The notes below the pieces were generated by a model. It made no database searches. It was given only the letters and a program-made list of their open reading frames with translations, and was not told the DNA's origin. The position numbers were made by a program, and so were the translations under genes. From Octopus vulgaris (lineage: Eukaryota): 64,000 nucleotides of DNA. The stretch is from contig OX597829.1 of the NCBI GenBank assembly GCA_951406725.2, positions 24,862,001 to 24,926,000 of the forward strand, read 5' to 3'. Shown piece after piece: positions 12,235 through 38,510 of this stretch. How positions within the stretch are numbered: the stretch's first letter is position 1; each line of letters opens with the position of its first letter.

Positions 12235-13723
12235 AACACCATAGTCAACTGCTACAAAGGTAAAGGTGCTGCATTAGATAGGAATAATTACAGAGGTATC
12301 AAGTTGGATCAGGTAATGAAATTCATGAAAGTCAAGTGATGAAAGATAGCTCCACTAATTAGGGAGAGAGTTAGTTTAGATGAGATGCAATTTGGGTCTG
12401 TGCCAGGGAGAAGCACCACTGATGCTATATTTCTGGTAAGACAGCTGCAGGAGAAATTCCTAGCCAAAGATAAACCTCTATACTTGGCTTTCGTTGACAT
12501 GGAGAAAGCCTTTGACAGAGATCCCTATCCCTTACCTGGTGGTCAATACGAAAACTAGGGATAGATGAGTGGTTGGTGAGAGCTGTACAAGCTATATACA
12601 TGGATGCTGTCAGTATAGTGAAGAATTCTGTTTAGAAGTAGAGGTTCACCAAGATTCAGTTCTCAGACCCCTCTTATTCATCATAGTCTTCCAACTGTAG
12701 GAAAGGCATAACTAGAAACTCCATAAGATGTACCTTGTGTAAGCTATGGAAACATAAGAGGTGCAGCAATATCAAAAGAAGGTTAACTGGGAAGATTTTT
12801 TGCATGTGGTAGATGCACAGAGGCAATAAACACCAAAGATGTACATGAAACAGATTCCATCACATGCCAGTGGGAAAAACTAGAAGTAGTTGATAGCTTC
12901 TTTTACCTAGGTGACCAAGTCAGTAGTGGATACTCTGAGAGCATGGCTGCTAGAATAAGAATAGCCTGGGCTATGTTGCTGGTAATAAAGGGCCTCTCAT
13001 TCAGAGCGAAAGGTAGACTGTATGATACATGTGCCTGAACAGTCATGCTACATAGCAGTAAAACATGGGCTTTGACTGCTGATGACATGCATAGGCTTGA
13101 AAGAAATGAAGCTAGTGTGCTTTGCTGGATGTGTAGTGTCAGTGTGCATACACAACAGAGTGTAAGCAGCCTGAGAGAAAGTTGGATATAAGAAGTATCA
13201 GATGTGGTGTGCTAGAGAGATGACTGCACTGGAATGGTCATGTCTTACGTATGGATTAGTATAGCTGTGTGAAGAAGTGTCACACCTTAACAGTGGAGGG
13301 AACCTGTGGAAGAGATAAACTCAGGAAGACATGGGATGAGGTGGTAAAGCATGACCTTCGAAAGGCGATCGAGACCTTTGAGGATATACTGTGCTTGAGA
13401 AGACCCCGGCAAGCCAAGTGAGATCATAGCCATGGCCAATGCCAGTGTCATGTAACTGGCCTATTTAAAAGTATTCCTTCAATCATCGGGCTTGCTTGAG
13501 AAGACCCGTTGAGCCAAGTGAAATCATAGCTGTGGCCAATGCCAGTGCTGCCTGAATGGCTCCTGTGCTGGTGGCTTGTAAAAAACTCCATTCAAGCGTG
13601 GCAGATGCCAGTGCCACTGGGCTGGCATGTGCAAGCACCAGCTGTAGAAACCTTGCCAGTCCTCAATCAAACTGTCCAATCCATGCCAAAGATGGAAAGC
13701 AGATGTTAAATGATGATGATGAT
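12235..13723 (+). mobile_element. Decayed RTE LINE (RT domain to 3' tail, internal deletions)
   Basis: YKGKGAALDRNNYRGIKL and DEMQFGSVPGRSTTDAIFLVRQLQEKFLAKDKPLYLAFVDMEKAFDR, with stops and frameshifts. Ends in (GAT)n. Same family as 855-2203. Confidence 0.9.
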
Positions 13724-17269: not shown

Positions 17270-18465
17270 TTAGGTTGTCTGGAAAGTTCTAAATCTTTTA
17301 ACGCTTCATTGAACACACCTAAAATGTAACACAGTTAAAACTTTGGTGTTGCTTGATGTGGTAGTGCATCTCTTCTTTGTTACTGACTAAAAATAGATTT
17401 ATCTTTCATTCCAGTTACTCTTTATTGACATTTGAAATGGATAACCAAAAATTTCATTTTTGCATTGTAATGCTTTTGCTTTTTTAAAAAAAGTGTAAGT
17501 GCAGCAAAGTCTTTCAAAAACATCTGGGAAGTTTATGGTGATGATGCTGTATCTGAATCAACTGTTCGAAGGTGGTTTGTAAAATTTAAAGCTGGAAAGT
17601 TTAGCTTGAAAGATCTTCAAAATTGGATGAAGATGCTTTGATGGCAAAAAATCAAAGAAAACTCAAATATCACAACTAGAAAATTTGCAGAAGAGTTGGA
17701 AGTTTCTAAAAGTATGGCGCATGAACACCTAGTGAAGCCAGGATACATCTCTCACTATAATGTATGGGTCCCTCACAAACTCTCAGAAAAGAATTGCTTG
17801 GACCAGTATTCTGTTTGTGATATGCTTTTGAAATGGAATGAAAGCATGCCTTTTTTGAAACAACTTGTGACTGGAGGTGAAAAATGGGTTGTGTATGAAA
17901 ATGTAGTACAAAAAAGATCGTGGAGTTTGCATAAGGATCTCCCAAAACAGCAACCAAAGATGTATATCTATACCAAAAAAGCTATGCTTTGTGTTTGGAA
18001 GGATCATAAAGGCATTATTTATTATGAGCTTCTCCCACAAAGCCAGACCATTAATTCTGATGTGTACTGTTGTCAGCTAGCTAATTTGAACCAAAAAAAT
18101 GCCTGACCACATTTATATTTGGCTACCCAAACAAAGTTACATGAACTTGGCTGGGATCTCTTGTCCCATCCACCATATTCTCCTGATATTGCACCATCCA
18201 ACTACCCTGCATTTTTGTCTCTACAGAACTTGTTGCAAAGAAAAACATTTAATGATTTAGACAGTTAAAGTGCATCTAGATAACTTTTTTTTCTTCAAAA
18301 CCAGTCAAATTTTATGCTAATGGAATATTTAAATTGCCTGATAGATGGGCAAACGTCATCAATAATAATGGAAATTATTTTATTGAATAAAATTTATTGA
18401 AGCGTCAATCATTTATATCTCATTTTGCATATTAAAAGACACTCAGAACTTTCTGGACAACATAA
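17270..18465 (+). mobile_element. Near full-length decayed mariner with TIRs and TA TSD, inserted into an RTE remnant (about 17100-18600)
   Basis: TA|TTAGGTTGTCTGGAAAGTTCT ... AGAACTTTCTGGACAACATAA|TA. Transposase pseudogene 17437-18390 has WVPHKL, VTGGEKW and HPPYSPDIAPSNY. The flanks rejoin as an RTE C-terminus. Confidence 0.92.
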
Positions 18466-19149: not shown

Positions 19150-20030
19150 TGGATTACATGTTACCAGTAGTGCTCAAGAGCTCCTAAATACATTAATTTT
19201 CTGCCTTTGAAAACAACTGGAAAGTAGGCTGAGCTTTTTATCAAGCTGCACTCAACACTTGATATCAGCGATGCTATTAAATCATCTTGGAAGGCTGTGC
19301 ATGATGCAATGCTCTCTGCATCCATAGAGGTTCTCAAACTTCCTATTTGTAAACATCAAGATTGGTTCAGTGATAACAACACAGATGTCCAGTAGTTGAT
19401 AGGTAAAATGCACAGCTCTCATAAAACATGGAACAGTGATAAGAGCTCAGAATCATGAGCTCTTATATGGCGCAGAATCATGGACACCCTACAGATAGCA
19501 CATTAACCAACCAGACATCTTCCACAAAGGCTGTCTCATGACAATCTGTGATTATTTGCTAAAAGACAGTGTTCCTAATGCTGACCTGTTTAGCAAGTGT
19601 AAGATTGATGGAACCAAGAGCTTTCTTATGCAGTCACAGTTGTGCTGGGCTGGCCATGTCATCAGAATGAGTGATGGAAGAATACCCAAAGTCCTCATGT
19701 ACAGCTAGCTTGATATTGGATGCAGGAATGTTGATCAACAACAGCTCAGATATAAGGACAAGCTGAAGAGTAACCTCTCAGCAGTCAATAGAGCTCATAA
19801 CACCTTCGAGCAAACAAAATGGAGATTGTTGTGTCAAAATGGTATAAGAAACTTTGTTGCAACCAGCATTAGCAGGCTTAGGAGTGCAAGGCAAAGGAGA
19901 AAAGCAGCTGCAAGCACACTGCATGCACTGACCCATAATCTTCATACTTTCAACATCTGTGGGCTTCTTTGCAAATTGTTAACAGGACTCAGATGTCACA
20001 TTCAACGTAAGCATTATGACTGACAAAGAA
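19150..20030 (+). mobile_element. Internally deleted RTE (BovB-like) LINE remnant
   Basis: KHQDWFSDNN, QLCWAGHVIRMSDGRIPKVLMY and RYKDKLK, plus a degenerate terminal C2H2-like segment ICGLLCKLLTGLRCHIQRKH. Confidence 0.75.
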
Positions 20031-20525: not shown

Positions 20526-21283
20526 AGGAGTGGCTGTGTGGTAAGTAGCTTGCTTACCAACTACATGGTTCCGGGTTCAGTTCCACTGCATGGCACTTTG
20601 GGCAAGTGTCTTCTACTATAGCCTCGGGCCGACCAAAGCCTTGTGAGTGGATTTGGTAGACGGAAACTGAAAAGAAGCCCGTCGTATCATCATCATCATT
20701 TAGCGCCGCTTTCCATGCTTTCCATGGACGGTTCAACTGGGGTCTGTGAAGCCAGAAGGCTGCATCAGGCCCAGTCTGATCTGGCAGTGTTTCTACGGCT
20801 GGATGCCCTTCCTAACACCAACCACTCCGTGAGTGCAGTGGGTGCTTTTTACGTGCCACCCGCACAGGTGCCAGACGGAGCTGGCAAACGGCCATGGACG
20901 GATGGTGCTTTTTACGTGCCACCGGCACGGGGGCCAGGCGAGGCTGGCAATGGCCACGAACGGATGGTGCTTTTACATGCCACCGGCACGGGGGCCAGGC
21001 GAGGCTGGCAACGGCCGTGTATATATGTATATATATATATGTATGTGTGTGTGTGTGTGTGTGTTAGTCTGTCTGTGTTTGTCCCCCCAACATCGCTTGA
21101 CAACCGATGCTAGTGTGTTTACATCCCCGTAACTTATCGGTTCAGCAAAAAGAGACCAATAGAATAAGTACAAGGCTTACAAAGGATAAGACCTGGGGTT
21201 GATTTGCTCAACTAAAAGGTGGTGCTCCAGCATGGCTGCAGTCAAATGACTGAAACAAGTAAAAGAGTAAAAGAGTAAAGAGT
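20526..21283 (+). mobile_element. tRNA-derived SINE (family 1) with an antisense RTE 3' end (about 20688-21017) in its central microsatellite
   Basis: A-box tggctgtgtggtaag, B-box ggttcagttcc, body cttgggcaagtgtcttctactatagcc..., tail ctgaaacaagtaaaagagtaaaagag. Confidence 0.85.
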
Positions 21284-24310: not shown

Positions 24311-25559
24311 CTCTATTATTTGTTTAATTGAATGTGACGCATCCATTTCCAATTAAGTATATATATATATATATATATAACTAGCCATTCTTCATCCATT
24401 ATTATTGTTCTCTCCACTCACATGCTTCATTGATTCACCACCCACCCACCTCCGACTCATTGAGCCAAATTATCTCTTGTCATACACTATACTTGCGTCT
24501 CTTTCTCTCTGCTGCTCCTTGTAGCCTATCTGACCACATAATCTTCCTTTCTTGTCCTCCCTCCCATCATCACTATCTTGTTGCTCTCCCCTCCCCTTCT
24601 CATTCTCTCTTCTGCAGCCCTCTAACTTCCCAACTCATTAACTCATTGGTCATCCGCCCTTCAACCCAACCCAGCATTTGTAGTTGCACTCTGCCTCTGT
24701 ATCCTTTCATCTCCTGCTTCCCATACAAGCTTGCAACCTCACCCATTTCTTATCTCATGCCTTCAGAGGCCGCCTGGACACCTCATCACAGATCCTACTG
24801 AATATTCTCTTCCTCTTTTCCAAATGTGAGTAGCCATGCAGCTCCTTGACAAGGATGTGCTCTGTCTTCTTCCACTTCTCATACTTAAATGCCTTGTCCC
24901 CTATCATAAAACCACTACACCCTTTCCTTTCCCTTAAAGTTTCTAGTCTTGCAAGCTGCATGGCAACCTGACTAGTGTTGGGAGTAAGGGAAAATACTCA
25001 GTACATACTGTAAAGAAGTTACCCTTAAGAAGGCCATCTAATCATAGAAAGCATGCTATACCAGATACTGGAACACAATGCAGATTTTGGACACATTGGA
25101 TCCTGTCAAACCATTCAACCCATGCCAGCATGAAACGAAGTTGTGATAGTGATGATGATCTCAGTGTCCTTAAATAATTATGAAACCCCCATCTCTTATT
25201 TATGTATTTATAGAAGCTGTGACAGAATGGAAACATTTTAATTTAGTGAGACATCCAAACTGAAGTGGTAATGTTACTGTCTCAGTTTCATTAGTAACAG
25301 CTTGATGAAGGCTGGTGGGTGTATCAGCTGAAATGTTGTGTTAACAACGAACAAGATGAGGACAAATATCAGTCAAATGTAAATAATGTAAATAATATAC
25401 ACTGTAAAGTAGTTGATATTAGGATGAGCACCCAGCCAAAGAGGCCATGCCAAAGCAGATGCAGGAGCTCAACACTGCTCTACAGATCCTGTTGATCTAT
25501 CCTTTCCATTTTAACATGAAAGATGGATATTGAATGATGATAGCTCTCATGTCTATTTT

Positions 25560-26390
25560 TATTCAGGCTAAATCATGAGAGGACTTTGGGGGATAAGCTG
25601 AACTCTGACTTTAGGTTGACCAACAAAGTATTCTGGCAGAGAATCCGTTTACTTTGTAACAAAAAGCTCTTTTCCACATCCTCATCATCATCACCATTTA
25701 ACATCTGTTGTCCGTGCTGGAATGGGTTGGTCGGTTTGACTGGGCTGGCACACTGGAAGGCTGCACCAGACTCCAGTCTAATTTGGCATGGTTTTCTATG
25801 GCTGGATGTCCTTCCTAACGCCAACCACTCCAAGAGTGTAATGGGTGGTTTTACGTGCCACCAGCAAGAGTGCCAAGAATTCAGCTGGGATTCTTTTCTC
25901 TTCAGAGGAGAGCATCCTTGAGAAGTGTAGAGAATATTTTGCTGATCTCATAAATCCAGTCACAATAAAATCTTCTGGTGAGCACAAGGTGCATCTAGGA
26001 ATGAAGAATAATTTTACAGAGGCTAAAGTTATAGCGGCAATTAGAGTGCACAAGTGCAGCAAGGCTGCTGGAGAGATTGAAATTCAGTCAGTAATGTTAA
26101 AAGTTTTGAATAAAGTATTCTCTGGCTGATTTATGTATGCCAGGTGGCTTGGACCTCTGGAAAGACACCAAAGTAATGGCAGTCTCAATTTTTAACATTA
26201 CTCAACAAAATGTGCAGCTTGTAGATTAGGGAGTCTGTGCAAGCCAAGCCACTACTTCTCCACCCAGGGGTAGGCCAAGAACGAGAAAAGTCTAATGATG
26301 GTTGCTTCTGATAGGGCTCTATGGAGGAGGTGCGTGAAGACTCTACCTCCATGACCTTCCCATGAATAGTGGACAGAGAAGATGGATTGA
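25560..26390 (+). mobile_element. Second RTE-family LINE remnant, with an antisense RTE tail inserted at about 25680-25870
   Basis: NKVFWQRIRLL, ILEKCREYFADLINP, KAAGEIEIQSVMLKVL and VAWTSGKTPK*WQ. The 3' end matches 40090-40340. Confidence 0.7.
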
Positions 26391-27250: not shown

Positions 27251-27652
27251 ATGGCATTCATTCACAACTCTTTCAATCACATACTAAATAGATTTGGACT
27301 CTTTCATTCTAAACTACATTTTAATATTGCATTTTGCTGTCAACAAACTTCTTACTTTAAAAGAAATTTAAGCTGTTCTTCTTCTGCTCCTGTTATAAAT
27401 TCCTTATTATCAAAATATTACTATATCAAGTATAATTACCATAACTTTAAATTATCTCGTTATGGAACTAATATTATTTGTACCACAATGTTTATTACAC
27501 CAATATCATCTAAGTCATATCAATTTCCTGAAATTAAAGAAGATGAGCTAGAAGAGAGTTTTGCACGAGGTACCGGACCAGGTGGACAAGCAGTTAATAA
27601 AACAGCAAACTGTTGTGTTATTAAACATATACCAACTGGTATAGTTGTCAAG
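27251..27652 (+). CDS. MTRFR: Mitochondrial translation release factor in rescue (C12orf65-like), coding exon 1
   Basis: Acceptor tttcAG at 27228-27229 and ATG at 27251. Translation ends ...[38 protein letters not shown], a class I release-factor GGQ domain of the C12orf65 type. Phase-0 donor GTAAAT at 27653. Confidence 0.93.
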
Positions 27653-28393
27653 GTAAATGATTTAATTGTTTGATTTTTAATCCATCCACTTTTACTAATC
27701 CTTTCCTTTGTTACATTTATCAACATTTTCCCAGACTAGGAAACCTAACTCTTCAGAACTTGAAAACTAGTTTGCTAATTACTATTTGTTACCGATAAAC
27801 TCACCAATTATTTCACTGTAGAACGAGGTTAATTAAATAATAGTCTACCTTAACCTGAGACTATTATATACATATACATAAGCACAAGTGCACCCCCCCC
27901 CCCTACACACACACACACAAAAGTATCATCGTTATTGTCATTGTCATCTCAGATACAGATACACCATCTGATCTTCTATGCTGGCATGGATAGTACAAAA
28001 CATCTTATAGTAGTATTCTGCAGTCAGATACTCTTCCAGATGTTTACTTGTTTCGCAGTGAGGTACTTAATTCTACAGGTCTTCACATATTCGTCTTCTG
28101 GACTGCAAGATATATTGTTTACACTTGACATTAACAAATTTCACTGTTGCCAAAACAATGGGCAAATATATACAGACACACAAGTACACATACATGCACA
28201 CCCACACACAGTGGGCTTCTGTACAGTTTCCATAAATCAAATGCCTAGTTTCATTTGTAAGGCATTAGTTGGCCTGGGGCTATGGTTGAATGCACTTGCT
28301 ACAGGTACTAGTCTATGGGATGGAACACAAAACTGCATGGTTGTGAAACATACATTTTAACTAGACAGCTATGCCTGCACCTCCTGTAAATGT

Positions 28394-29760
28394 GGTGTGG
28401 CTATGTGGTAAGAAGTGCACTTCCCAATCTCATAGCTACAGTAGAAGACACTTGGAGTCTTCTACTATAGCTCTAGACCAACTGAAGCCTTATAAGTGAT
28501 TTTTAAAGACAGAATCTAAAAAATCTATTCTATATATATATATATATAAGCATACATAGAGGTTGCAAAGGTTAAATTGTCGCCATTTTATGTTTTTAAC
28601 TTCGTGCATGCGCATTGTTTGTTTCTGATTTTGTCAACTACACAGTATAGTAAGGTCAGTTGGGCACTGTCTGTGAGAAAAACAGCACCGTGGTGCAATT
28701 TCACTCTGCCAGAAACTTGGAAATGTCATGCTGTACTGCTTGGCATTTAAGCCAGAATCTCCAATATGAACATTTCAGAATGTTTGGGTGTCAATCTAAG
28801 GACAGTGCAGAGGATTCAGAAAGGGTTGGATAGGTCTAATGGTGATTACAAAGGTATGGCAGCTAGGAAAACTCACTCTAATCATTCTGATGACAAAAGA
28901 ACTCCTGAATTTGTCGGTGAGATCCAGGCCATGATTGACAACAATCCCTCCAAGTCACTGAGATCCATTGAACATGCTTTGGTTTTTCTCAGATGAGAAA
29001 ACTTTCTGCTAAGATCAGATGGTGAACACACAATAAGTGTTGGCTTGCTGTATCCCCAAAACATGTACCGAGAGTGATAAATATCAAACATCCAGTCAAC
29101 ATCATGGTGTTTGGAGTGATCACTAGTGATGGTAACGTTATGCCTCCATTCATCTTCCCACATGGCCTACATCAAGTGCCTGGAGTTGGTAGTGCTGCCC
29201 TGGTTCAAGAAAGTGGTAGCTGGAAGACCTTATGTCTGGCAACAGGACTCTGCACCATGCCACACAAGCAGAACTCAGTCATGGCTGTCAGACTACATCA
29301 CACCTAACATCTGGCCACTTAACTCCTCAAACTGATTTACGTATATGTATGCATGCATATACATAAATATATATATCTGTATATAGCTATCTGTGTATGT
29401 ATGTATGTATGTATGTATGTATTATGTATGTATGTAAGTATGTATGCATGCATGTATGCATATATATACATAAATATATATATATATCTGTATATTGCTA
29501 TCTGTGTATGTATGCATGCATGCATATATATACATAAATGTATATATATCTGTATATAGCTATCTGTGTATTTTCGTGTTTGTCCACCCCCCTCCTTAAC
29601 AACTAATTTGGAAGTTTGGCAAAAGAAATCAATAGAATAAGTATCAAGCTTAAAGAATAAGTACTGAGATCAATTTGTCCAACTAAACCCTTCAAGGGAG
29701 TGCTCCATCTTGGCCACAGTCCAATAACTGAAATAAGGGAAAAAGTGAAAGATAGAAGAT
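28394..29760 (+). mobile_element. SINE family 1 split by a DD37D transposon and a minisatellite
   Basis: Head at about 28394-28530, tail at about 29570-29760. Confidence 0.65.
28559..29335 (+). mobile_element. Tc1/mariner superfamily DD37D (maT-like) transposon remnant
   Basis: MNISECLGVNLRTVQRIQ (HTH), FSDEK, KHPVNIMVFGVITSDG and YVWQQDSAPCHTS...IWPLNS. 5' end is homologous to 53934. Confidence 0.8.
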
Positions 29761-29901
29761 ATACATATATAGGCGTGTTATCTATTCATATTTATGATGT
29801 TTGTATGTGTGTGTGAGTTTAGAGGGATATATTATCCGGGTGGATATTGTGGCAGCTCTCAGTTAAGTTAATCGCATTGATTAGTGTTTAACATCTATAA
29901 C

Positions 29902-30362
29902 TACTGTAAATCCTTAAGTATAATCCACATTTTTTCCCCAAAATTTAAAGGTCAAAATCCCTACTGCGTACTATATACGAGGTTAAAAATGAAAATTATT
30001 TTCTAAGCAATGTCCAAGTCTCTATTTGCTGTCCGGCAATGTTTATTCAGACGCATTTTGTGATGTAGGGCATGAAAATACCTTAAGCTAAGCCTGAAAG
30101 CAATGAAGTCATAAAAGAATCATCCATAACTTGCAGTAAGCAACATTTATTTAACATTATTACTGCTATTTCTTTATTTTCTGCAAACAAAATACACAAA
30201 AAAGCTACACGTTTGCATTATGTTATATATACAATAATAATAAAGGACATTACCGAATACATTTTTACAAACGAAGGACGTTAAATAGTTAGAGAAGGGG
30301 TGTGTATTATACACAGGGTTTAGGTTTTTCAGAGGTACAGCCCCCTAAAAATCCCCTGCGTA
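29902..30362. mobile_element. Probable non-autonomous Tc1/pogo-like element (one end recognisable)
   Basis: Starts TACTGTAAATCCT..AGTATAATCC.CA, with repeated sub-terminal tgcgta.tatatacgagg / gggtgtgtattatacacagg motifs. No second TIR seen. Confidence 0.35.
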
Positions 30363-30883
30363 GGAGTTGCTAATCACACTGTAAATTCCTCTACTAGGTA
30401 ATTCCGTGTTCACTTCCCTGGATGGTAATATTATCTGGAGTGTATATTTGCAATAATTATAATGTTAAAGAATATGGGGACTGATACATCCTCAAAATTT
30501 AATTATTTTTATTTTACTGTATGGCTTACAGCATACTTTTATAGTGATGACAACCTACATATGTTTTTGCTGCACAGTGTATAAGCAGTTACATATGTAA
30601 CTGGGTATGAATTTTTTGTGCAGCTTCATTCTAGGTCTTTTAACCAGCTTGGCTTGAAGTGAACAGTATTCTTTTTGTTGTGTATTGGTGAGGAATCAGG
30701 AGGAAGCGAGAGGAGGTTAGTTTGAGTCTGAAGTCCAATCTGATTGTAAAATTGTATGGTTCACCTTGGCTTTACACCTGTTGCTGGCCGAAGTCAGGAT
30801 TCTATGTAATTAGGTCAAAGTTTATTTTACTGTATTTGCAGGCTTATTTGTATATTGTGATAGATGGGGTCTTAAGAAGCTTA

Positions 30884-30921
<38 letters not shown>

Positions 30922-30923
30922 CC

Positions 30924-31005
30924 TCAAAATAACTAATATATATCACCATCATCGTTGTTTAAGCGGGTGTTAAACAATGATGATGATATATATTAGTTAT
31001 TTTGA
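30924..31005. repeat. Foldback hairpin built from an RTE 3' terminus plus flank
   Basis: tcaaaataactaatatatatca..catc.ttgtttaa-gcgggtg-ttaaacaatgatgatgatatatattagttattttga. Confidence 0.8.
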
Positions 31006-31229
31006 AATACAGATACCTCTTAAAAAGGGATGTCAACATCCAAGCTTCACCAGTTTAATCTTATATATCAATGAAACGTTGAAGAGTCTAGTATAACTTA
31101 ATAGTATTGGTGTTTATTGTTTAAAATTGGCAGCAATTAAGTATATTACAGAGTTTAATTATTATTACACTTCGATATATATGGGTAACTTTCAATATAA
31201 TGTATATATTAAAAGATGTGTATGTGTCC

Positions 31230-31800
31230 ATTGTCAAGTGTGAATTCTAGAAATAGTGGTCTGTTCTTGGCTAAGAACTCATGTAGTTGTTTCACTAAAA
31301 AAGTGGCATTGACTGATTCCCCAATTGGCACAAATCTGGACTGCATCTCATCTCAGGTAGTTCTCTCTGTTATGAGTTTCCCTAAAACTATCAGAACTTG
31401 GTTGGTTGTTTTTGTAGTTACTTATTTCTAAAGCATCTTCTTTCCCTTTGTAATAGTTCTACTGTTATTACTACACAGATGGAGTAACTATACAGATAGA
31501 GTTGCTCTATAGACTATGACATTTGAGAAACAATATCCTCCTGGCATGCATTTCAACAGTTGCAATAGGTAGCATTTCAGCAATTACAGATCGAGCTGTT
31601 GGGTGGAGACTGTGTAGGTGCATAGTTGTTTCTGTTATAGCATGCAGTGTTGTGAAATGATATTATCTGAGCACAAGTGGCTTATCTTGATGGTATGGAC
31701 ATTAAAGAATTTATCATAACTATAGGTTCTTGAGAATTGCTATCTAATTAGTGACAAGTTTCTGATTTCATTAGTAGATACATTGAAATTGGATGGAATA
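31230..31800 (-). mobile_element. Old RTE RT fragment
   Basis: Minus-strand DEMQSRFVPIGESVNATFLVKQLHEFLAKN, homologous to about 12380-12480. Confidence 0.6.
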
Positions 31801-33386
31801 TTAACTTTCTAATTTGCTTTAGGTATGGGAGAGAGTGAGGTGGGGAATCATCATACTAACTTATCTGTAAAGCCACTCCTCACTACAACTTAAACTTAAT
31901 TGAAGTCCTAAACTCCATTTTTATGATTTAGGGGATGATAATAAATACAATCATTATCATCTTCGTTATTGTTTAATATCCATTTTTCATGCGGATATAG
32001 GTTGGATGGTTTGACAGGAACCGACAAGGACAGGCCATATCAGGTTCTGTTTTAGCTTGGTTTCTACAGCTGGACACTCCTCCTAGTGCCAACAACTCCA
32101 CAAAGTGTACTGGGTGCTTTTTGTGTGGCACCATCACAGGCACTTTTTAAGTGGCACTAGCACCCACACTATCAGTTTTTACATGGCACCTTGGTTTTAG
32201 GATCTCAATTCTGTTGTAGGCTGTGAGTCTTCTCAAGTACAGCAATGTGCCACACATGTCAGGAATGCACTACATAACTGTTTAACCCATGCATGCATGG
32301 GTCAAACAGTTTATTGAGGTAGATTTCTTATAATTAGTTGCCCTTCCTGTCACCGGCCCTCTTCTGTTCCTCCTCTCTTCTCTCTCTTACCAGTTAAACA
32401 TTATCACCACTCCATTTCTGTACTGCTAGCTGTCACTCTTTCACCTGGTTACTCATTACTAATCTCTCTCTCTCCATCAAAGATGTAAGTGTAGTGTCTC
32501 TCTTGCATTACTCTCTACCATTATTACCTGTCTTATTACACTCTGTCTGTACTGTTTCTTCAATTTTTCCTTCAAGTTCTTCTTACCACTGTGATCTCAC
32601 CTCCTGTCTTCTTTTTTTTTCTCCTTCTCAACCTAGTTCTTCCTTTGCAATCAATCTCCCACCTACATTGCTCCCTTTTCTTGTGCTGTGCTTAAAATGT
32701 ACCTTACACTCGGTTCAAGTGATTGTGAATGAGCAGAGACATCATAGGGCCAAGAGGACTCTTTAGTCTTATCATGTCAAGAATATAGCAACCTATTAAA
32801 TAAAAGTTAAATACACCAAGTACATTCTGAAAGTAGCTGGTATTAGGAAGGGTATCCATACATAAAAACCATACTGAAAGAAAGCATTTCAGCAAGATGT
32901 GGTCTTCCAACCATACTGAAGAGAACTAACTCCAAATAAGAACTGGCTCAGTACAGCCCATATGGAAGTGGACGTCAGGTGCAGGCATGGCTGAGTGGTA
33001 AGAAGTTTGCTTCCCAACCACATAATTTTAGGTTCAGTCCCAGTGCATTTCTCTAACTCCTGGCTGTTTGATAACCATTGGTACCACTGGGTTTGTCCAT
33101 CCTTTGACAAATTTTGTTTTTTTTTGTCCTACAGGATGTCCAACAATACACCTTACTCTTTACCAAGCAGGCTTGGTACAGTTCAGTTTAGTTACCAATG
33201 GCCCAATCATGTGACTTGTTCTTGGTTACATGTTACCAGTAACACTTAGAGCAACTCAGCATAACATACATGCATGCATGCATCTATCCATAGATACTCA
33301 CATACATACACACACAATCACACACACACAAAAACCACACACACACACACACACACACACACTTACATATGCATGCGCACACACAG

Positions 33387-33820
33387 AGGCATGGCTGTGT
33401 GATTAAAAAGTTTGCTTCTGAACCACGTAGTTTCAGACTCAGTCCCCTTGCACGAAACCTTAGGCAAGTATCTTCTATTATGACTGTGGTTTGGCCAAAG
33501 CTTTGTGAACAGGTTTGATAGTTTGAGTCATATGTGCATGTGTGTTTGTTTGTGTTTTCTTGTCTTGACATTGGTTACTAACTGTAAACAAATATCACCA
33601 TAATACAAGTAGTGTTGTTCAATTGCAAACTTCCATGGAAGCATACCCAGCCATTGTGCTGTTCATATTCAAAGGACTAGGGAAAATATTACCCTGTTAC
33701 CTTGTTGATAATAGGTAAGGGTTGGCAACATGAAGAGAATCCAACCATAGGAAATTTGCTTCAAAATGCTTCATTTGATCCATGTAAGCATGGATGTTGA
33801 AACGATGATGATGATGATGA
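33387..33820 (+). mobile_element. SINE with family-1 head and RTE-derived 3' tail
   Basis: Head ggcatggctgtgtgatt...cttaggcaagtatcttctatta. Ends ccatgtaagcatggatgttgaaacgatgatgatg, like the RTE 3' end. Confidence 0.6.
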
Positions 33821-33982
33821 TATAATATATGTAAATCTATGTCATAGACATACAAACATATCAACTTTACCTATTTCTGGTGAACAGCTTTATCAATTTT
33901 TAACCTTTATTGGGGTTGCATCTGAGGTGCCTACATCACTTGATCAATTCCAGAGAAATATTAGCTATTCTCTTTATATGAA

Positions 33983-34013
<31 letters not shown>

Positions 34014-34016
<3 letters not shown>

Positions 34017-34248
34017 GGAGTAAACACATAAATGTGAAACAAGGTGGAAAAAAAGAGTACTCAAATACCAGTGGTAGAGAATTATGCTTTATTTAAAGCA
34101 GCAGAAAATTCAACAAAATCTGTTACTCTGAGTTTCTCGTTGCCGTTCATCAGACAGTTTTTTCTAGCAAAAATTGTCTGATGAACGGCAACGAGAAACT
34201 CAGAGTAACAGATTTTGTTGAATTTTCTGCTGCTTTAAATAAAGTATA
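34014..34248. mobile_element. Penelope-like foldback element with perfect 70-bp inverted repeat
   Basis: Arms 34087-34156 and 34175-34244 are exact reverse complements with an 18-nt spacer. The element is embedded in (TA)n and carries a hammerhead core. Confidence 0.75.
34169..34216 (+). ncRNA. Minimal type I hammerhead ribozyme motif (mirror copy on minus strand at about 34115-34162)
   Basis: aaaaattgt-CTGATGA(34178-34184)-aCGgcaaCGa-GAAA(34195-34198)-CTCaGAG-TA(34206-34207)-acagatttt. All core nucleotides present, GUA cleavage triplet, palindromic short stem III. Pair 10.1-11.1 is A-A, which is non-canonical. Confidence 0.7.
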
Positions 34249-34334
34249 TATATGTATATATGTATGTATAATGTTTCTTGATGTTAAAGAAAACTATTCC
34301 TGTTTGTTGACAGAAATACATTTTCTGTTTTCAG

Positions 34335-34538
34335 TGTCATGTGAGTAGATCATTGGAAGTTAACAGAAAACAAGCTCGTGAAATAATGAAACAAAAGCTG
34401 GATGTTTTCTTACATGGAAAGGACAGCTTCTCAGAACGTAATAAAGCAGAATCTGCTGTTAAATTAGCTAAAAAGAAAAGCAAAACCAATAAACGTTTAG
34501 AAATGAAAAAAGCATTCAATTTGGAGAAAGAAAAATAA
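34335..34538 (+). CDS. MTRFR: MTRFR/C12orf65 coding exon 2 (basic C-terminal tail)
   Basis: Polypyrimidine tract and AG at 34333-34334, phase 0. Reads CHVSRSLEVNRKQAREIMKQKLDVFLHGKDS...KKAFNLEKEK*, matching the C12orf65 CHxxRSxxxNRKxARxxxxxKxDVF pattern and Lys-rich tail. Confidence 0.93.
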   Translation, partial: CHVSRSLEVNRKQAREIMKQKLDVFLHGKDSFSERNKAESAVKLAKKKSKTNKRLEMKKAFNLEKEK

Positions 34539-35061: not shown

Positions 35062-35770
35062 TTAAAATATTTATTCACTCTATTTTTGAGTCAATCTATT
35101 AAATATATTCCTTTGTTTTAATCTTCAATAGTTGTTTTCAGCATCTCCCTGGTCACTCCCATCCAATCTTCTATTATGTGAGTAACCATGTAGGTGACAC
35201 CATATTGTTGTTTGCAATTCAGTTTGCAGTTCTGGTTTCTTTGCCTTTAACAGTACTAAGTGTTACTGGAAGCAACAATAACACATGAATAATTCTGACT
35301 CTTTCACAATAATTTATATTTTCCTTTATAGCAAAGATTTAAAAAGTAAAAATTTAAAATTATGAACATCATCATCTTTAGAAATTAAATATTTTCTTCA
35401 ATCCATCCAGCCATCTTCTTTGCCTGCTATTCTTGGGAGGGTCATTAGGAAGGCCATCCAGCCATAGAAACCATGCCAAATCAGATTGGAACCTGGTGCA
35501 GCTCCCTGGCTTACCAGTTTTCAGAGTGTAGTGGGTGCTTTTTACATGCCGCCAGTACAGGTGACATTGATGTGGCACCAGCATCAGCCATGACTACTAT
35601 CTCACTTGGCTTGACAGGTCTACACAAGCATGATTTTTTAAACTATTATTTACTGAAAATCCTTCTCTTTGAGATGCAGATTTCAAAAATCAAATCCGTT
35701 TTTCTCAAGGATACACCATTTCAAAGCCTTTCAGGGCTATACACACATGCACTCTCATTTATATAGAATA

Positions 35771-36181
35771 TATCATCATCATCATTATCATCATCGTTTA
35801 ACGTCCGTTTTCCATGCTAGCATGGGTTGGACGGATCGACCGGGGTCTGGGAAGCCAGGAGGCTGCACCAGGCTTCAGTCTGATCTGGCAGTGTTCTTAC
35901 AGCTTGATGCCCTTCCTAACACCAACCACTCTGTGAGTGTAGTGGGTGCTTTTTACGTGCCACCGGCATAGGGGCCAGAGGAGGCTGGCAGTGGCCACGA
36001 TCGGTTGGTACTTTTTACGTGCCACCGGCACAGAAGCCAGTCAAGGCAGCGCTCTGTCTGGTATCGACCACGTTCGGATGGTGCTTTTTATGTGTCACCG
36101 GCACAGGTATCACAACTACAATTTCCGTTTAATTTTTATTTTGATGTTGGTGTTGACGTACTTGACTCAATAGGTCTCCTC
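35771..36181 (-). mobile_element. RTE LINE 3' UTR fragment
   Basis: (CAT)n-cgtttaacgtccgttttccatgctagcatgg, the reverse complement of about 1700-2203. Confidence 0.85.
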
Positions 36182-37030
36182 ATATATATATATATATATG
36201 TAAAGAGAGAGAGAAGTGTATGTATATCATCATTGTTGTTTTAATGTCCACTTTTCCAAGCTTGCATGGGTCAGTTGGAGTTTATTGAAGTTGATTCTCA
36301 ACAGCCAGTTGTCCTTCCTGCTTCCAACTCTCACCTGTTTCCAAGTGAGGTAATATTCCCTCATGACTGAATTTGTTTTCGCAGAAAACATACACATACA
36401 AACAGACAGACATACATATGTACGTATGATCGGACTATTTCAGTTTCTGCCTACCAAGTCCACCCACAAAGCTTTGGTAGCTCAAGGATAGAGTTTCCCA
36501 AGGTGCCACACAATGGAATTGAAACCCAAACCATGTAGTTAGGATGGAAGCATCTTAACCCTGCAGCCACATATCTCCATAATTGTTTGTTTGTTTGTGT
36601 GTGTGGGTAGAATGTAGATGTGTATATCATCGCCTTCATTATTTCCATGGTCCATTTTGGCATGGGTTGGATGGTTTGACATGATCCTTCAAGCCAGAGG
36701 ACGGCATTGATCTCTAGTGTCTGGTTTGGCAATGTTTCTACAGTTATAGGCCCTTCCTAACACCAAAAACTTTACAGGGTGTACTTTGTATTTTTCTGTT
36801 GCACCAGCAATAGTGAGATCACCAAATAATTCACATGACAAGATCCCTTGATACCATCACATATCTTACTCACCCCATATGTAGTCCTCTACATTCATTG
36901 TCCATGTTTCACTACTATACACCAGAGAGAGAGAGAGAGCAGAAAATAGAATAAAAGGTTTTTTTAAAAATTGACTCTGCATTTTTGAAAACATTATGTT
37001 AAGGTATTATTTTTAGCGTGGTTTTATTCT

Positions 37031-37688: not shown

Positions 37689-38009
37689 TCATCATCATCA
37701 TCATCATCATCATCATTTAACGTCCGCTTTCCATGCTAGCATGGGTTGGACGGTTCAACTGGGGTCTGGGGAGCCCGAAGGCTGCACCAGGCCAGTCAGA
37801 TCTGGCAGTGTTTCTACAGCTGGATGCCCTTCCTAATGCCAACCACTCCGAGAGTGTAGTGGGTGATTTTATGTGCCACCGACACAGGTGCCAGACAAGG
37901 CTGGCGAACGGCCACGCTCGGATGGTGTTTTTTTATGTGCCACCGACACAGGTGCCAGACGAGGCTGGCAGACGGCCACGCTCGGATGGTGTTTTTATGT
38001 GCCACCGAC
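37689..38009 (-). mobile_element. RTE 3' UTR fragment within microsatellite
   Basis: (CAT)n tail plus tandem units of about 60 bp (gtgccaccgacacaggtgccagac...ggatggtg). Confidence 0.85.
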
Positions 38010-38041
<32 letters not shown>

Positions 38042-38048
38042 ATGTATG

Positions 38049-38130
<82 letters not shown>

Positions 38131-38133
<3 letters not shown>

Positions 38134-38510
38134 AGCAGGAGTAGGTGTGGTTGTGTGTAAGAAGTTTGCTTCCCAACCACTGCATGTTACTTTGCGCAAG
38201 TGTCTTCTGCTATAACCTTGGGCTGACAAAAGCCTTGTGAATGGATTTGATAGACAGAAACTGAAAGAAACCCATTGTATATTATATATATATATGTGTG
38301 TGTGTGTGTGTAATTGTCTCCCCCTCATCACTGCCTGACAACCAGTGTTAGTGTGTTTACATCCCTGTAATGTACTGGTTTGCCAAAAGAGACTGATAGA
38401 ATAAGTACTAGGCTTAAAAAATAAGTTCTCGGGTCGATTTGTTCAACTAAAATCCTTCAAGGTGGTGCTCCAGCATGGCCACAGTCAAATGCCTGAAACA
38501 AATAAAAGAA
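38131..38510 (+). mobile_element. SINE family 1 copy
   Basis: Head-to-tail similarity with 20526-21283. Confidence 0.8.

What the first reader, a model, noticed from the sequence alone, without database searches (positions are those of the whole stretch)
34014..34335. Perfect foldback encoding a hammerhead ribozyme on both strands, 90 nt upstream of the last MTRFR coding exon
Seen: two exactly complementary 70-nt arms (34087-34156 and 34175-34244). The right arm reads CUGAUGA-aCG(GCAA)CGa-GAAA-CUCaGAG-UA|acagauuuu, a complete minimal type I hammerhead core with a GUA triplet (predicted cut after 34207). Because of the symmetry, the minus strand carries the same ribozyme with a better stem I (CUGU/ACAG). 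Established: minimal hammerheads with a palindromic, nearly loopless stem III are typical of Penelope-like elements and can work as dimers; coleoid cephalopods have extensive ADAR editing of dsRNA. Inference: in the MTRFR pre-mRNA the sense ribozyme is masked by its own antisense arm. The intron therefore holds two mutually exclusive folds (a 70-bp dsRNA or a self-cleaving motif) close to the 3' splice site. This could be a self-inhibited cleavage switch, an editing or siRNA substrate, or simply a young, tolerated insertion. The lack of mismatches between arms implies recent origin or conversion. The A-A mismatch at 10.1-11.1 may reduce activity.
Basis: partly seen in the sequence, partly recalled or inferred. 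Interest (0 to 1): 0.8.

Follow-up and report, generated by a model that had tools for sequence, protein, structure and literature searches.

The report
Penelope retrotransposon stump in an intron
The hammerhead-ribozyme palindrome is real, but it is one of about 770 similar stumps left in this genome by a young Penelope-like jumping gene, its mirror halves likely made at insertion, and it is likely a harmless intron passenger rather than a gene-control switch.

Summary
Observation confirmed: exact 70-bp arms, a minimal type I hammerhead core on each strand, 90 nt before the last exon of an RF-1-domain gene. It is not a special locus. The 231-bp unit (34014-34244), in a (TA)n tract, is a piece of a young Penelope-like retrotransposon: 3,754 exact ribozyme cores, about 770 head-to-head foldbacks at this point, 100 with the same junction. 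Full-length 3.36-kb copies encode a 711-aa telomerase-like RT with the Hydra-clade motifs. Arms end at two fixed points (+66 or tail +138), nearly always one of each per insertion (47 of 48; 55 of 56); arms share variants (42 of 43); 45 of 100 unselected arms stop within 19 nt upstream of the core, at an Inr-like site below TATA and CCAAT motifs. Best reading: two cDNAs from the element RNA's 5' end, joined head to head. In the pre-mRNA the ribozyme is predicted locked in the hairpin, and the exon looks normally spliced, so no switch. Inverted pLTR copies, tails and these ribozymes are published; the scan noted like stumps in other genomes. Residual interest: mechanism statistics and a weak, inconclusive trace of cleavage-site ends.

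The parts
34014..34244 (.). Whole insertion: head-to-head pair of 5'-end pieces of a Hydra-clade Penelope-like element
   Evidence: 96% identical to the pLTR of full-length copies, the only piece of the 3.36-kb unit in the window; family counts
34014..34086 (-). Element 'tail' (+67 to about +138 from the first core base), the start of the 5' UTR that leads to the ORF in full-length copies
   Evidence: Continues into CCGGTCTAACCC and the ORF in L092; ends at CCGGT before (TA)n in tail arms
34087..34162 (-). Left arm: ribozyme-bearing pLTR piece, from about -9 to +66
34124..34153 (-). Minimal type I hammerhead core, minus strand; predicted cut after 34124
   Evidence: same stem I, stem III and GUA as Hydra-2_aMil in PMC8557442 File S2
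34162..34244 (+). Right arm: pLTR piece from -16 (one base inside the likely transcription start) to +66 (AATAAAG end); private C>T at 34174
   Evidence: (table 3)
34178..34207 (+). Minimal type I hammerhead core, sense to the host pre-mRNA; predicted cut after 34207; predicted paired with the left arm at probability 0.998 or more
33986..34013 (.). (TA)n target, left side
   Evidence: (TA)n on both sides of nearly all copies
34245..34270 (.). (TA)n-like target, right side; no target-site duplication can be read in the repeat
34335..34538 (+). Last coding exon of the host RF-1-domain (MTRFR-like) gene
   Evidence: Pfam RF-1 46-107; RNA-like contig covers 34333-34620
27515..27652 (+). Upstream coding exon with the GGQ motif (5' limit not mapped); donor GT at 27653, so the host intron is 27653-34334

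Best explanation
This is a 231-bp stump of a young Hydra-clade Penelope-like retrotransposon sitting in a (TA)n tract of a host intron, and its two mirror arms were likely made during insertion as two cDNAs copied from the 5' end of the element's RNA, leaving a predicted-silent ribozyme pair. Shown: family membership, copy numbers, two fixed 3' ends, one of each per insertion, shared variants between arms, and a pile-up of 5' ends 0-19 nt upstream of the core. Inferred: the element RNA starts at the Inr-like CCATT (A at -17), so the hammerhead is its first structure (stem I can extend exactly to -17); the element protein nicks both strands of (TA)n, starts reverse transcription at +66 on one strand and at the tail end on the other, both cDNAs run off the uncut RNA's 5' end, and their ends are joined through 1-4 nt of microhomology. 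When the downstream pair of start sites is used instead, the same steps give the long inverted copies. In the host pre-mRNA the left arm is made first and would trap the ribozyme in a 76-bp duplex, so it likely does not cut and is removed with the intron.
For: Family: 36 of the 40 best-scored relatives carry the inverted arm at the same axis (463 candidates, 40 scored); 100 exact junction copies; 763 forward and 775 reverse foldback matches, control 1 and 1; 3,754 exact cores. Parent: tandem unit of about 3.36 kb; 711-aa ORFs in L092, L095, L098, L100 differ at 2-17 of 2,136 nt; best Foldseek match TERT, E 1.6e-9; RWK, DKT, CxCx5C, CxxC and CxH motifs conserved over 119 sequences as defined for Hydra (PMC8557442 section 11). 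One tail arm plus one short arm: 47 of 48 mini pairs and 19 of 22 longer pair rows, 55 of 56 in a second set (4 of 60 loci not parsed). Same junction with the tail on either side (41, 9, both 3 of 53) and in both +58 alleles, so it forms repeatedly. Arms agree at the +58 variant in 42 of 43 pairs (about 18 discordant expected if independent); arm-to-arm divergence 0.55% (16 pairs) against 1.38% between loci (480 pairs), two private variants present in both arms. Arms are not nested: the tail arm is the 5'-shorter one in L047, L093, L094, L095, L104 and the window, the longer one in L041, L098, L099, L103, L108, L110. Unselected sample: 45 of 100 arms stop upstream of the core within the scored range 0 to -27, by eye all within 0 to -19; only 2 stop between -30 and -89. 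CCAAT at -75 and TATA at -27 from A-17. Two internal RT start sites bounding the tail, extension of both target strands, a predicted dimer and use of uncut RNA are reported in vitro for the anole element PAc (PMC11167929). Host: pairing probability 0.998 or more; contig depth 22 on the exon and 0 at 34273-34330 in run X7.
Against: No transcription start was mapped; the promoter motifs are short consensus matches. The two-cDNA step is inferred from end products: a symmetric foldback followed by lopsided deletion of the centre could also give non-nested arms. L001-L030 were chosen for having a tail on one arm. The 22 longer rows hold one duplicate locus and a few non-partner pairs. Pfam gave no hit on the ORF itself at E up to 10 and the GIY-YIG fold was not shown structurally (one search tested residues 10-477 only). 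X7 is only guessed to be RNA, is contigs, and the splice joint itself was outside the stretch laid. Lack of effect on the host is not proven by one run.
Confidence: 0.85

Rival explanations
1. Same element and same harmless status, but the second arm arises by fold-back self-priming of one strand (the reading offered for rotifer Penelopes), with the centre trimmed afterwards, not from a second RNA-templated cDNA.
For: Arms share variants, which fold-back also predicts; some junctions show short self-primed extensions (L013; the GAATTTT class); palindromic junctions were read as self-priming in PMC3846280.
Against: A folded-back copy must lie within its template at both ends, yet the tail arm is often the 5'-shorter one (window copy); the +66 end also terminates non-inverted tandem copies such as L100, so it is a start site in its own right.
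Confidence: 0.25
2. The minis are a non-autonomous family copied from one foldback master (a MITE- or retrozyme-like unit).
For: 100 copies share one exact junction; the TTTAAA allele was seen in 12 mini pairs and in 0 of 19 called long pairs.
Against: Dozens of different junctions; the tail lies on either side of the same junction; no shared arm-to-arm mismatches; the stump lacks the upstream promoter motifs; no tandem arrays as in retrozymes (definition in 10.64898/2026.07.22.740005).
Confidence: 0.05
3. One reading: the intron toggles between a 70-bp duplex and an active ribozyme, or is an exapted editing or siRNA substrate that controls MTRFR.
For: The duplex is long, perfect and 90 nt from the 3' splice site; ADAR editing of long duplexes in coleoids is established knowledge, so incidental editing is plausible.
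Against: Energy gap above 100 kcal/mol; minimal PLE hammerheads show no activity as monomers and low activity as dimers (PMC4209133); editing would alter the core adenosines, not free an active ribozyme (inference); the copy is one of about 770 and about 1% diverged; the A>G and T>C differences in run X7 stand in all three DNA runs too, so they are paralog variants.
Confidence: 0.04
4. Assembly artefact.
For: Perfect palindromes can be made by some library methods; no contig laid spans the whole insertion.
Against: Unequal arms with biologically fixed ends, a private mismatch between arms, about 770 like loci with varied junctions, and the same structure published for PLEs.
Confidence: 0.01

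Closest known systems
Hydra clade of C-terminal EN+ Penelope-like elements (Craig et al. 2021, PMC8557442), including Hydra-1_Obim of Octopus bimaculoides and Hydra-2_Amil of Acropora millepora
   Same: RWK, DKT, CxCx5C linker, CxxC and CxH motifs, single ORF near 710 aa, (TA)n targets, type I hammerhead with palindromic stem III; stem I CTGT/ACAG, ACTC-N-GAGT and GUA cut site equal those listed for Hydra-2_aMil.
   Different: A different family from Hydra-1_Obim (its listed hammerhead and N-terminal protein differ; compared by eye); unit 3.36 kb against mostly under 3 kb; stem II only 2 bp against 3-7 bp in the listed Hydra rows; thousands of very young copies.
Typical PLE insertion: pLTR, adjacent inverted 5'-truncated copy, optional tail at one end (PMC8557442 Fig. 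2 legend; PMC3846280)
   Same: Head-to-head inverted arms, tail on one arm, palindromic junction, TATA and Inr-like motifs in the pLTR.
   Different: Here the tail is about 72 nt (30-40 published) and the insertion holds only the RNA's 5' end, with no ORF.
PAc (Poseidon of Anolis), in vitro mechanism (Frangieh et al. 2024, PMC11167929)
   Same: Two internal RT start sites bounding the tail, AT-rich target, both strands extended, uncut RNA as template.
   Different: Other clade; there the ORF starts inside the hammerhead, here 205 nt after the first core base; that paper does not, in the two of four parts read, explain inverted arms.
Dual min-HHRs on opposite strands in Schistosoma and other metazoans (Cervera and De la Pena 2014, PMC4209133)
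   Same: Pairs of minimal hammerheads close together on opposite strands, from truncated PLEs.
   Different: Reported 100-700 bp apart; here 25 nt apart.
Non-LTR retrozymes
   Same: Short, non-coding, type I hammerhead, PLE-derived.
   Different: Retrozymes are head-to-tail tandem arrays; this is a single head-to-head pair.

Membership tests
Penelope-like elements (EN+) | Single ORF with telomerase-like reverse transcriptase | tested here: met
   711-aa ORF with YRDD; model pLDDT 93.7; best Foldseek hit TERT E 1.6e-9; VIA ranks several RTs, TERTs among them, within Z 12-15
Penelope-like elements (EN+) | C-terminal GIY-YIG endonuclease | tested here: inconclusive
   GVVY...YTG motif with conserved R, H, E, N; Atlas look-alikes named GIY-YIG or carrying PF01541 in 11-50% of members; no direct Pfam hit; domain not folded alone
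Penelope-like elements (EN+) | Partial tandems forming pLTRs, adjacent inverted 5'-truncated copy, optional tail | tested here: met
Penelope-like elements (EN+) | Hammerhead motif in the pLTR | tested here: met
   One core per pLTR, 3.36 kb apart in tandems
Hydra clade | RWK motif, DKG changed to DKT, CxCx5C linker, CxxC and CxH around conserved E and N, no CCHH | tested here: met
   RWK 37-39, DKT 113-115, CNCKNESSC, CRLC, CRH conserved in alignment A1; absence of CCHH read by eye; definition
Hydra clade | Insertion into (TA)n | tested here: met
Hydra clade | Grouping with Hydra families in an RT phylogeny | not tested
   Reference Hydra proteins were seen only in the paper's supplement and were not brought into a tree
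Type I hammerhead ribozyme | Conserved core CUGANGA, GAAA, NUH in type I order with stems I and II | tested here: met
   stem II is 2 bp closed by A-A
Type I hammerhead ribozyme | Stable stem III (monomer) or self-complementary stem III (dimer) | tested here: met
   Dimer form only: two copies of +20..+28 cofold at -7.4 kcal/mol
Type I hammerhead ribozyme | Rfam hammerhead model match | tested here: not met
   No hammerhead family among 27 matches at E up to 5
Type I hammerhead ribozyme | Self-cleavage | not testable with these tools
   Genomic footprint of cut RNA inconclusive
Non-LTR retrozyme | Head-to-tail tandem units each with a hammerhead | tested here: not met
   Single head-to-head pair in the window

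The most novel reading that the evidence does not exclude
This octopus-type Hydra family is a fossil record of the unsolved Penelope insertion reaction: every insertion is built from two cDNAs of one RNA, one started at each of the two internal start sites on opposite target strands and joined head to head, the stumps map the transcription start to the base of hammerhead stem I, and a minor class of stumps beginning at +29 to +31 records RNA that the ribozyme had cut in the germ line, which would be the missing in vivo evidence that a metazoan Penelope hammerhead cleaves.
Probability: 0.3. Interest if true: 0.55.

Novelty: new member of a known kind. Interest (0 to 1): 0.24.

Why it matters
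For the host gene, probably not at all. For retrotransposon biology, the family is a good test bed: how Penelope elements make inverted arms and a one-sided tail is still open in the papers read, and here thousands of near-identical young copies, intact ORFs and two sharp start sites make the two-cDNA model directly testable, while about 770 perfect 70-150 bp hairpins are a ready source of double-stranded RNA in an animal known for heavy editing.

Tried and rejected
Rfam: no hammerhead hit, only hairpin-type miRNA models below their cut-offs. Pfam on the ORF: 0 families twice; PDB sequence searches: nothing below E 0.6. Presence or absence in other individuals: contigs of X2, X3, X5 break at the (TA)n tracts and none spans the insertion, so polymorphism could not be told. 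Editing: the three A>G or T>C family differences appear equally in DNA runs, so none is evidence of editing. RNA ends at 34207: contigs cannot show them. Footprint of cut RNA: among 48 head-to-head loci with both arms starting near the cut, the longer arm starts at +29 or +30 in 18 and at +29 to +32 in 23, but about 10 of these are explained by AACA/TGTT microhomology; a strict break test gave 22 raw matches at +30 (about 9 independent true breaks on reading) against 25 at +26 and 9 at +33 (many look like 1-nt deletions, not read in context), so no clear excess. At most some 25 such loci stand against about 770 with intact cores, so cut RNA is not the main template. A 3' splice site at TTCTAG (-11) as cause of the 5' boundary was rejected because arms keep TTCTAG. 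Literature searches: 'Penelope, twin priming, inverted' gave 2 unrelated papers; 'hammerhead ribozyme, intron, cephalopod' gave only PMC8557442; searches found no paper on this family or on a two-cDNA origin of inverted PLE arms; older subscription papers on Penelope are not in the library, so this is no proof of absence. PMC13282606 counts active Penelope-like families in O. vulgaris but does not mention hammerheads or Hydra in its main text; its supplements were not read.

Full report
1. Observation. The two 70-nt arms are exact reverse complements, and pairing continues to 34162/34169 with one mismatch around TCTAGC. The hammerhead core occurs at 34178-34207 (+) and 34124-34153 (-) and nowhere else in the window; chance expectation 0.00. 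The host exons at about 27515-27652 and 34335-34538 match consecutive parts of Pfam RF-1; donor GT is 27653 and the last exon starts at 34335. Rfam has no hammerhead match here. Positions below count from the first core C (0); the predicted cut is between +29 and +30.

2. It is a repeat. The left 150 nt finds 463 candidates in the 2.80-Gb own genome; 36 of the 40 scored have the inverted arm at the same axis, and the copies sit in (TA)n. Exact counts: 3,754 cores; 763 forward and 775 reverse head-to-head matches with the arms meeting just upstream of the core, that is about 770 loci, control 1 and 1; 100 with the window's junction in its unmutated form; 1,575 cores with native sequence to -21.

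3. The parent. A locus whose arm ran on past the junction (L020) led to 1,179 matches of an upstream motif, often in inverted pairs 0.1-6 kb apart or in tandems about 3.36 kb apart. Of 20 stretches fetched, four hold a 711-aa ORF and one a 727-aa ORF; the four differ at 2-17 of 2,136 nt. The window stump is 96% identical to the pLTR and is the only piece of the unit in the window. Pfam and PDB sequence searches missed the ORF, but 1,074 relatives were found among 7,999 scored candidates, the AlphaFold model (pLDDT 93.7) matched TERT best, and the alignment conserves RWK, DKT, YRDD, CxCx5C, VY...Y.G, CxxC and CxH. These are the diagnostics of the Hydra clade (PMC8557442, section 11 read whole), which already has a member in Octopus bimaculoides (supplement rows). 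The hammerhead listed for coral Hydra-2_aMil has the same stem I, stem III and cut triplet, and many Hydra hammerheads carry a mismatch at the base of stem II, so the A-A pair is ordinary for the clade; the 2-bp stem II is shorter than any listed.

4. Anatomy of insertions. Arms end at +66 (AATAAAG) or at the tail end near +138 (CCGGT), followed by TA repeats. Head-to-head pairs carry one of each: 47 of 48 minis and 19 of 22 longer rows (the first 30 loci were chosen for one tail, and the longer rows include a duplicate and some non-partner pairs), 55 of 56 in a set chosen by junction only. The same junction occurs with the tail on either side (41, 9, both 3 of 53). Arms agree at the +58 variant in 42 of 43 pairs and are closer within than between loci (0.55% against 1.38%). 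In long copies the two arms are truncated independently and either may be the longer. In an unselected sample, the first 100 exact cores of contig 1, 55 arms run past -30 and 45 stop close to the core; five scored at -22 to -27 stop at -13 to -19 on reading, and only 2 stop between -30 and -89. At -17 lies CCATTCT, an Inr-like motif (consensus recalled), with TATA at -27 and CCAAT at -75 from it; stem I can extend from +45 back exactly to -17.

5. Mechanism. Inferred: the 3' UTR of an upstream copy is the promoter, the RNA starts near -17, and the two start sites for reverse transcription occur twice in a full RNA and once in short RNAs from any 3' end. Priming at the upstream pair gives 83-nt and 155-nt cDNAs that run off the 5' end; priming at the downstream pair gives long, randomly truncated arms. 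One cDNA per target strand, joined by microhomology, yields the foldback. This fits the in vitro PAc data: two start sites bounding the tail, both strands extended, uncut RNA used (PMC11167929, parts 1-2 of 4 read).

6. Does the ribozyme act? In the host pre-mRNA the core bases pair with the left arm at probability 0.998 or more; the hairpin is -131.6 kcal/mol against -7.6 for the hammerhead fold. Stem III forms only between two copies, and minimal PLE hammerheads were inactive as monomers and weak as dimers (PMC4209133, parts 1-2 of 4 read). In run X7, guessed to be RNA, a 394-nt contig covers 34333-34620 from its base 29 at depth 22, with no cover at 34273-34330, as expected of a spliced exon; this is one run of contigs. 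In the element's own RNA, a minor class of foldbacks starts at or next to the cut site (18 of 48 at +29 or +30), but microhomology explains about 10 and the position controls show no clear excess: inconclusive.

7. Known or new. Inverted pLTR copies, one-sided tails, (TA)n targeting and hammerheads in pLTRs are published (PMC8557442 passages; PMC3846280; PMC4209133 also notes close hammerhead pairs on opposite strands). Retrozymes are tandem arrays and do not fit (bioRxiv 10.64898/2026.07.22.740005, part 1 of 5 read). I found no description of this family or of a two-cDNA origin of the arms in searches. The scan's own notes hold two like cases in other genomes, seen after my reading was set down.

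8. Verdict. Real, ordinary for its family, and not a host switch. New member of a known kind; interest 0.24. The residual value lies in the family as a test bed for the Penelope insertion mechanism.

Noticed in passing
L141-L188 (places): A second, minor pile-up of foldback arms starting at +29 to +31, the predicted ribozyme cut; four loci join +30 to +31 with no microhomology and L183 has both arms starting at +30.
   Followed up: partly
mini loci among L001-L090: The +58 allele TTTAAA (the window's) was seen in 12 mini pairs but in 0 of 19 called long pairs and 0 of 6 called ORF-linked arms: perhaps a source locus that makes mainly short RNAs.
   Followed up: no
L133 (G000:C4:84637578-84637630): One arm lacks the whole hammerhead core, joining the two strands of stem I (about -5 to +30), as a template jump across a cut RNA or a microhomology deletion would give.
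   Followed up: no
window 34012-34243, run X7: Contig depth over the tail is about 14 times that over the core in the RNA-like run but about 1.5 times in DNA runs; could reflect hairpin loss in library making, related families or RNAs starting after the ribozyme. Contig depth is a poor measure.
   Followed up: no
window 34194, 34137, 34119 (table 3): Common family variants in all four runs: A to G at the stem II closing position (+16) and at the stem I mismatch (+34), so related subfamilies differ in ribozyme pairing.
   Followed up: no
L019 (G000:C25:36893762): Rare mini with a tail on both arms, a near-perfect 300-bp palindrome.
   Followed up: no
PMC8557442 supplement, Hydra-2_Amil: The coral family has CCATT just upstream of stem I and a TATA-like run further up, suggesting the same start-site layout across the Hydra clade.
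   Followed up: no
window 17471-18103 and 28550-29332: Broken frames that look like Tc1/mariner transposase remnants (resemblance recalled, not searched).
   Followed up: no
window 12343-12555, 19228-20020, 25544-26126: Broken frames that look like LINE reverse-transcriptase remnants (resemblance recalled, not searched).
   Followed up: no
window 32000-32200, 35445-36110, 36640-36770, 37720-38210, 20800-21130: Several copies of a SINE-like repeat with internal 60-70 nt subrepeats, some inverted to each other.
   Followed up: no
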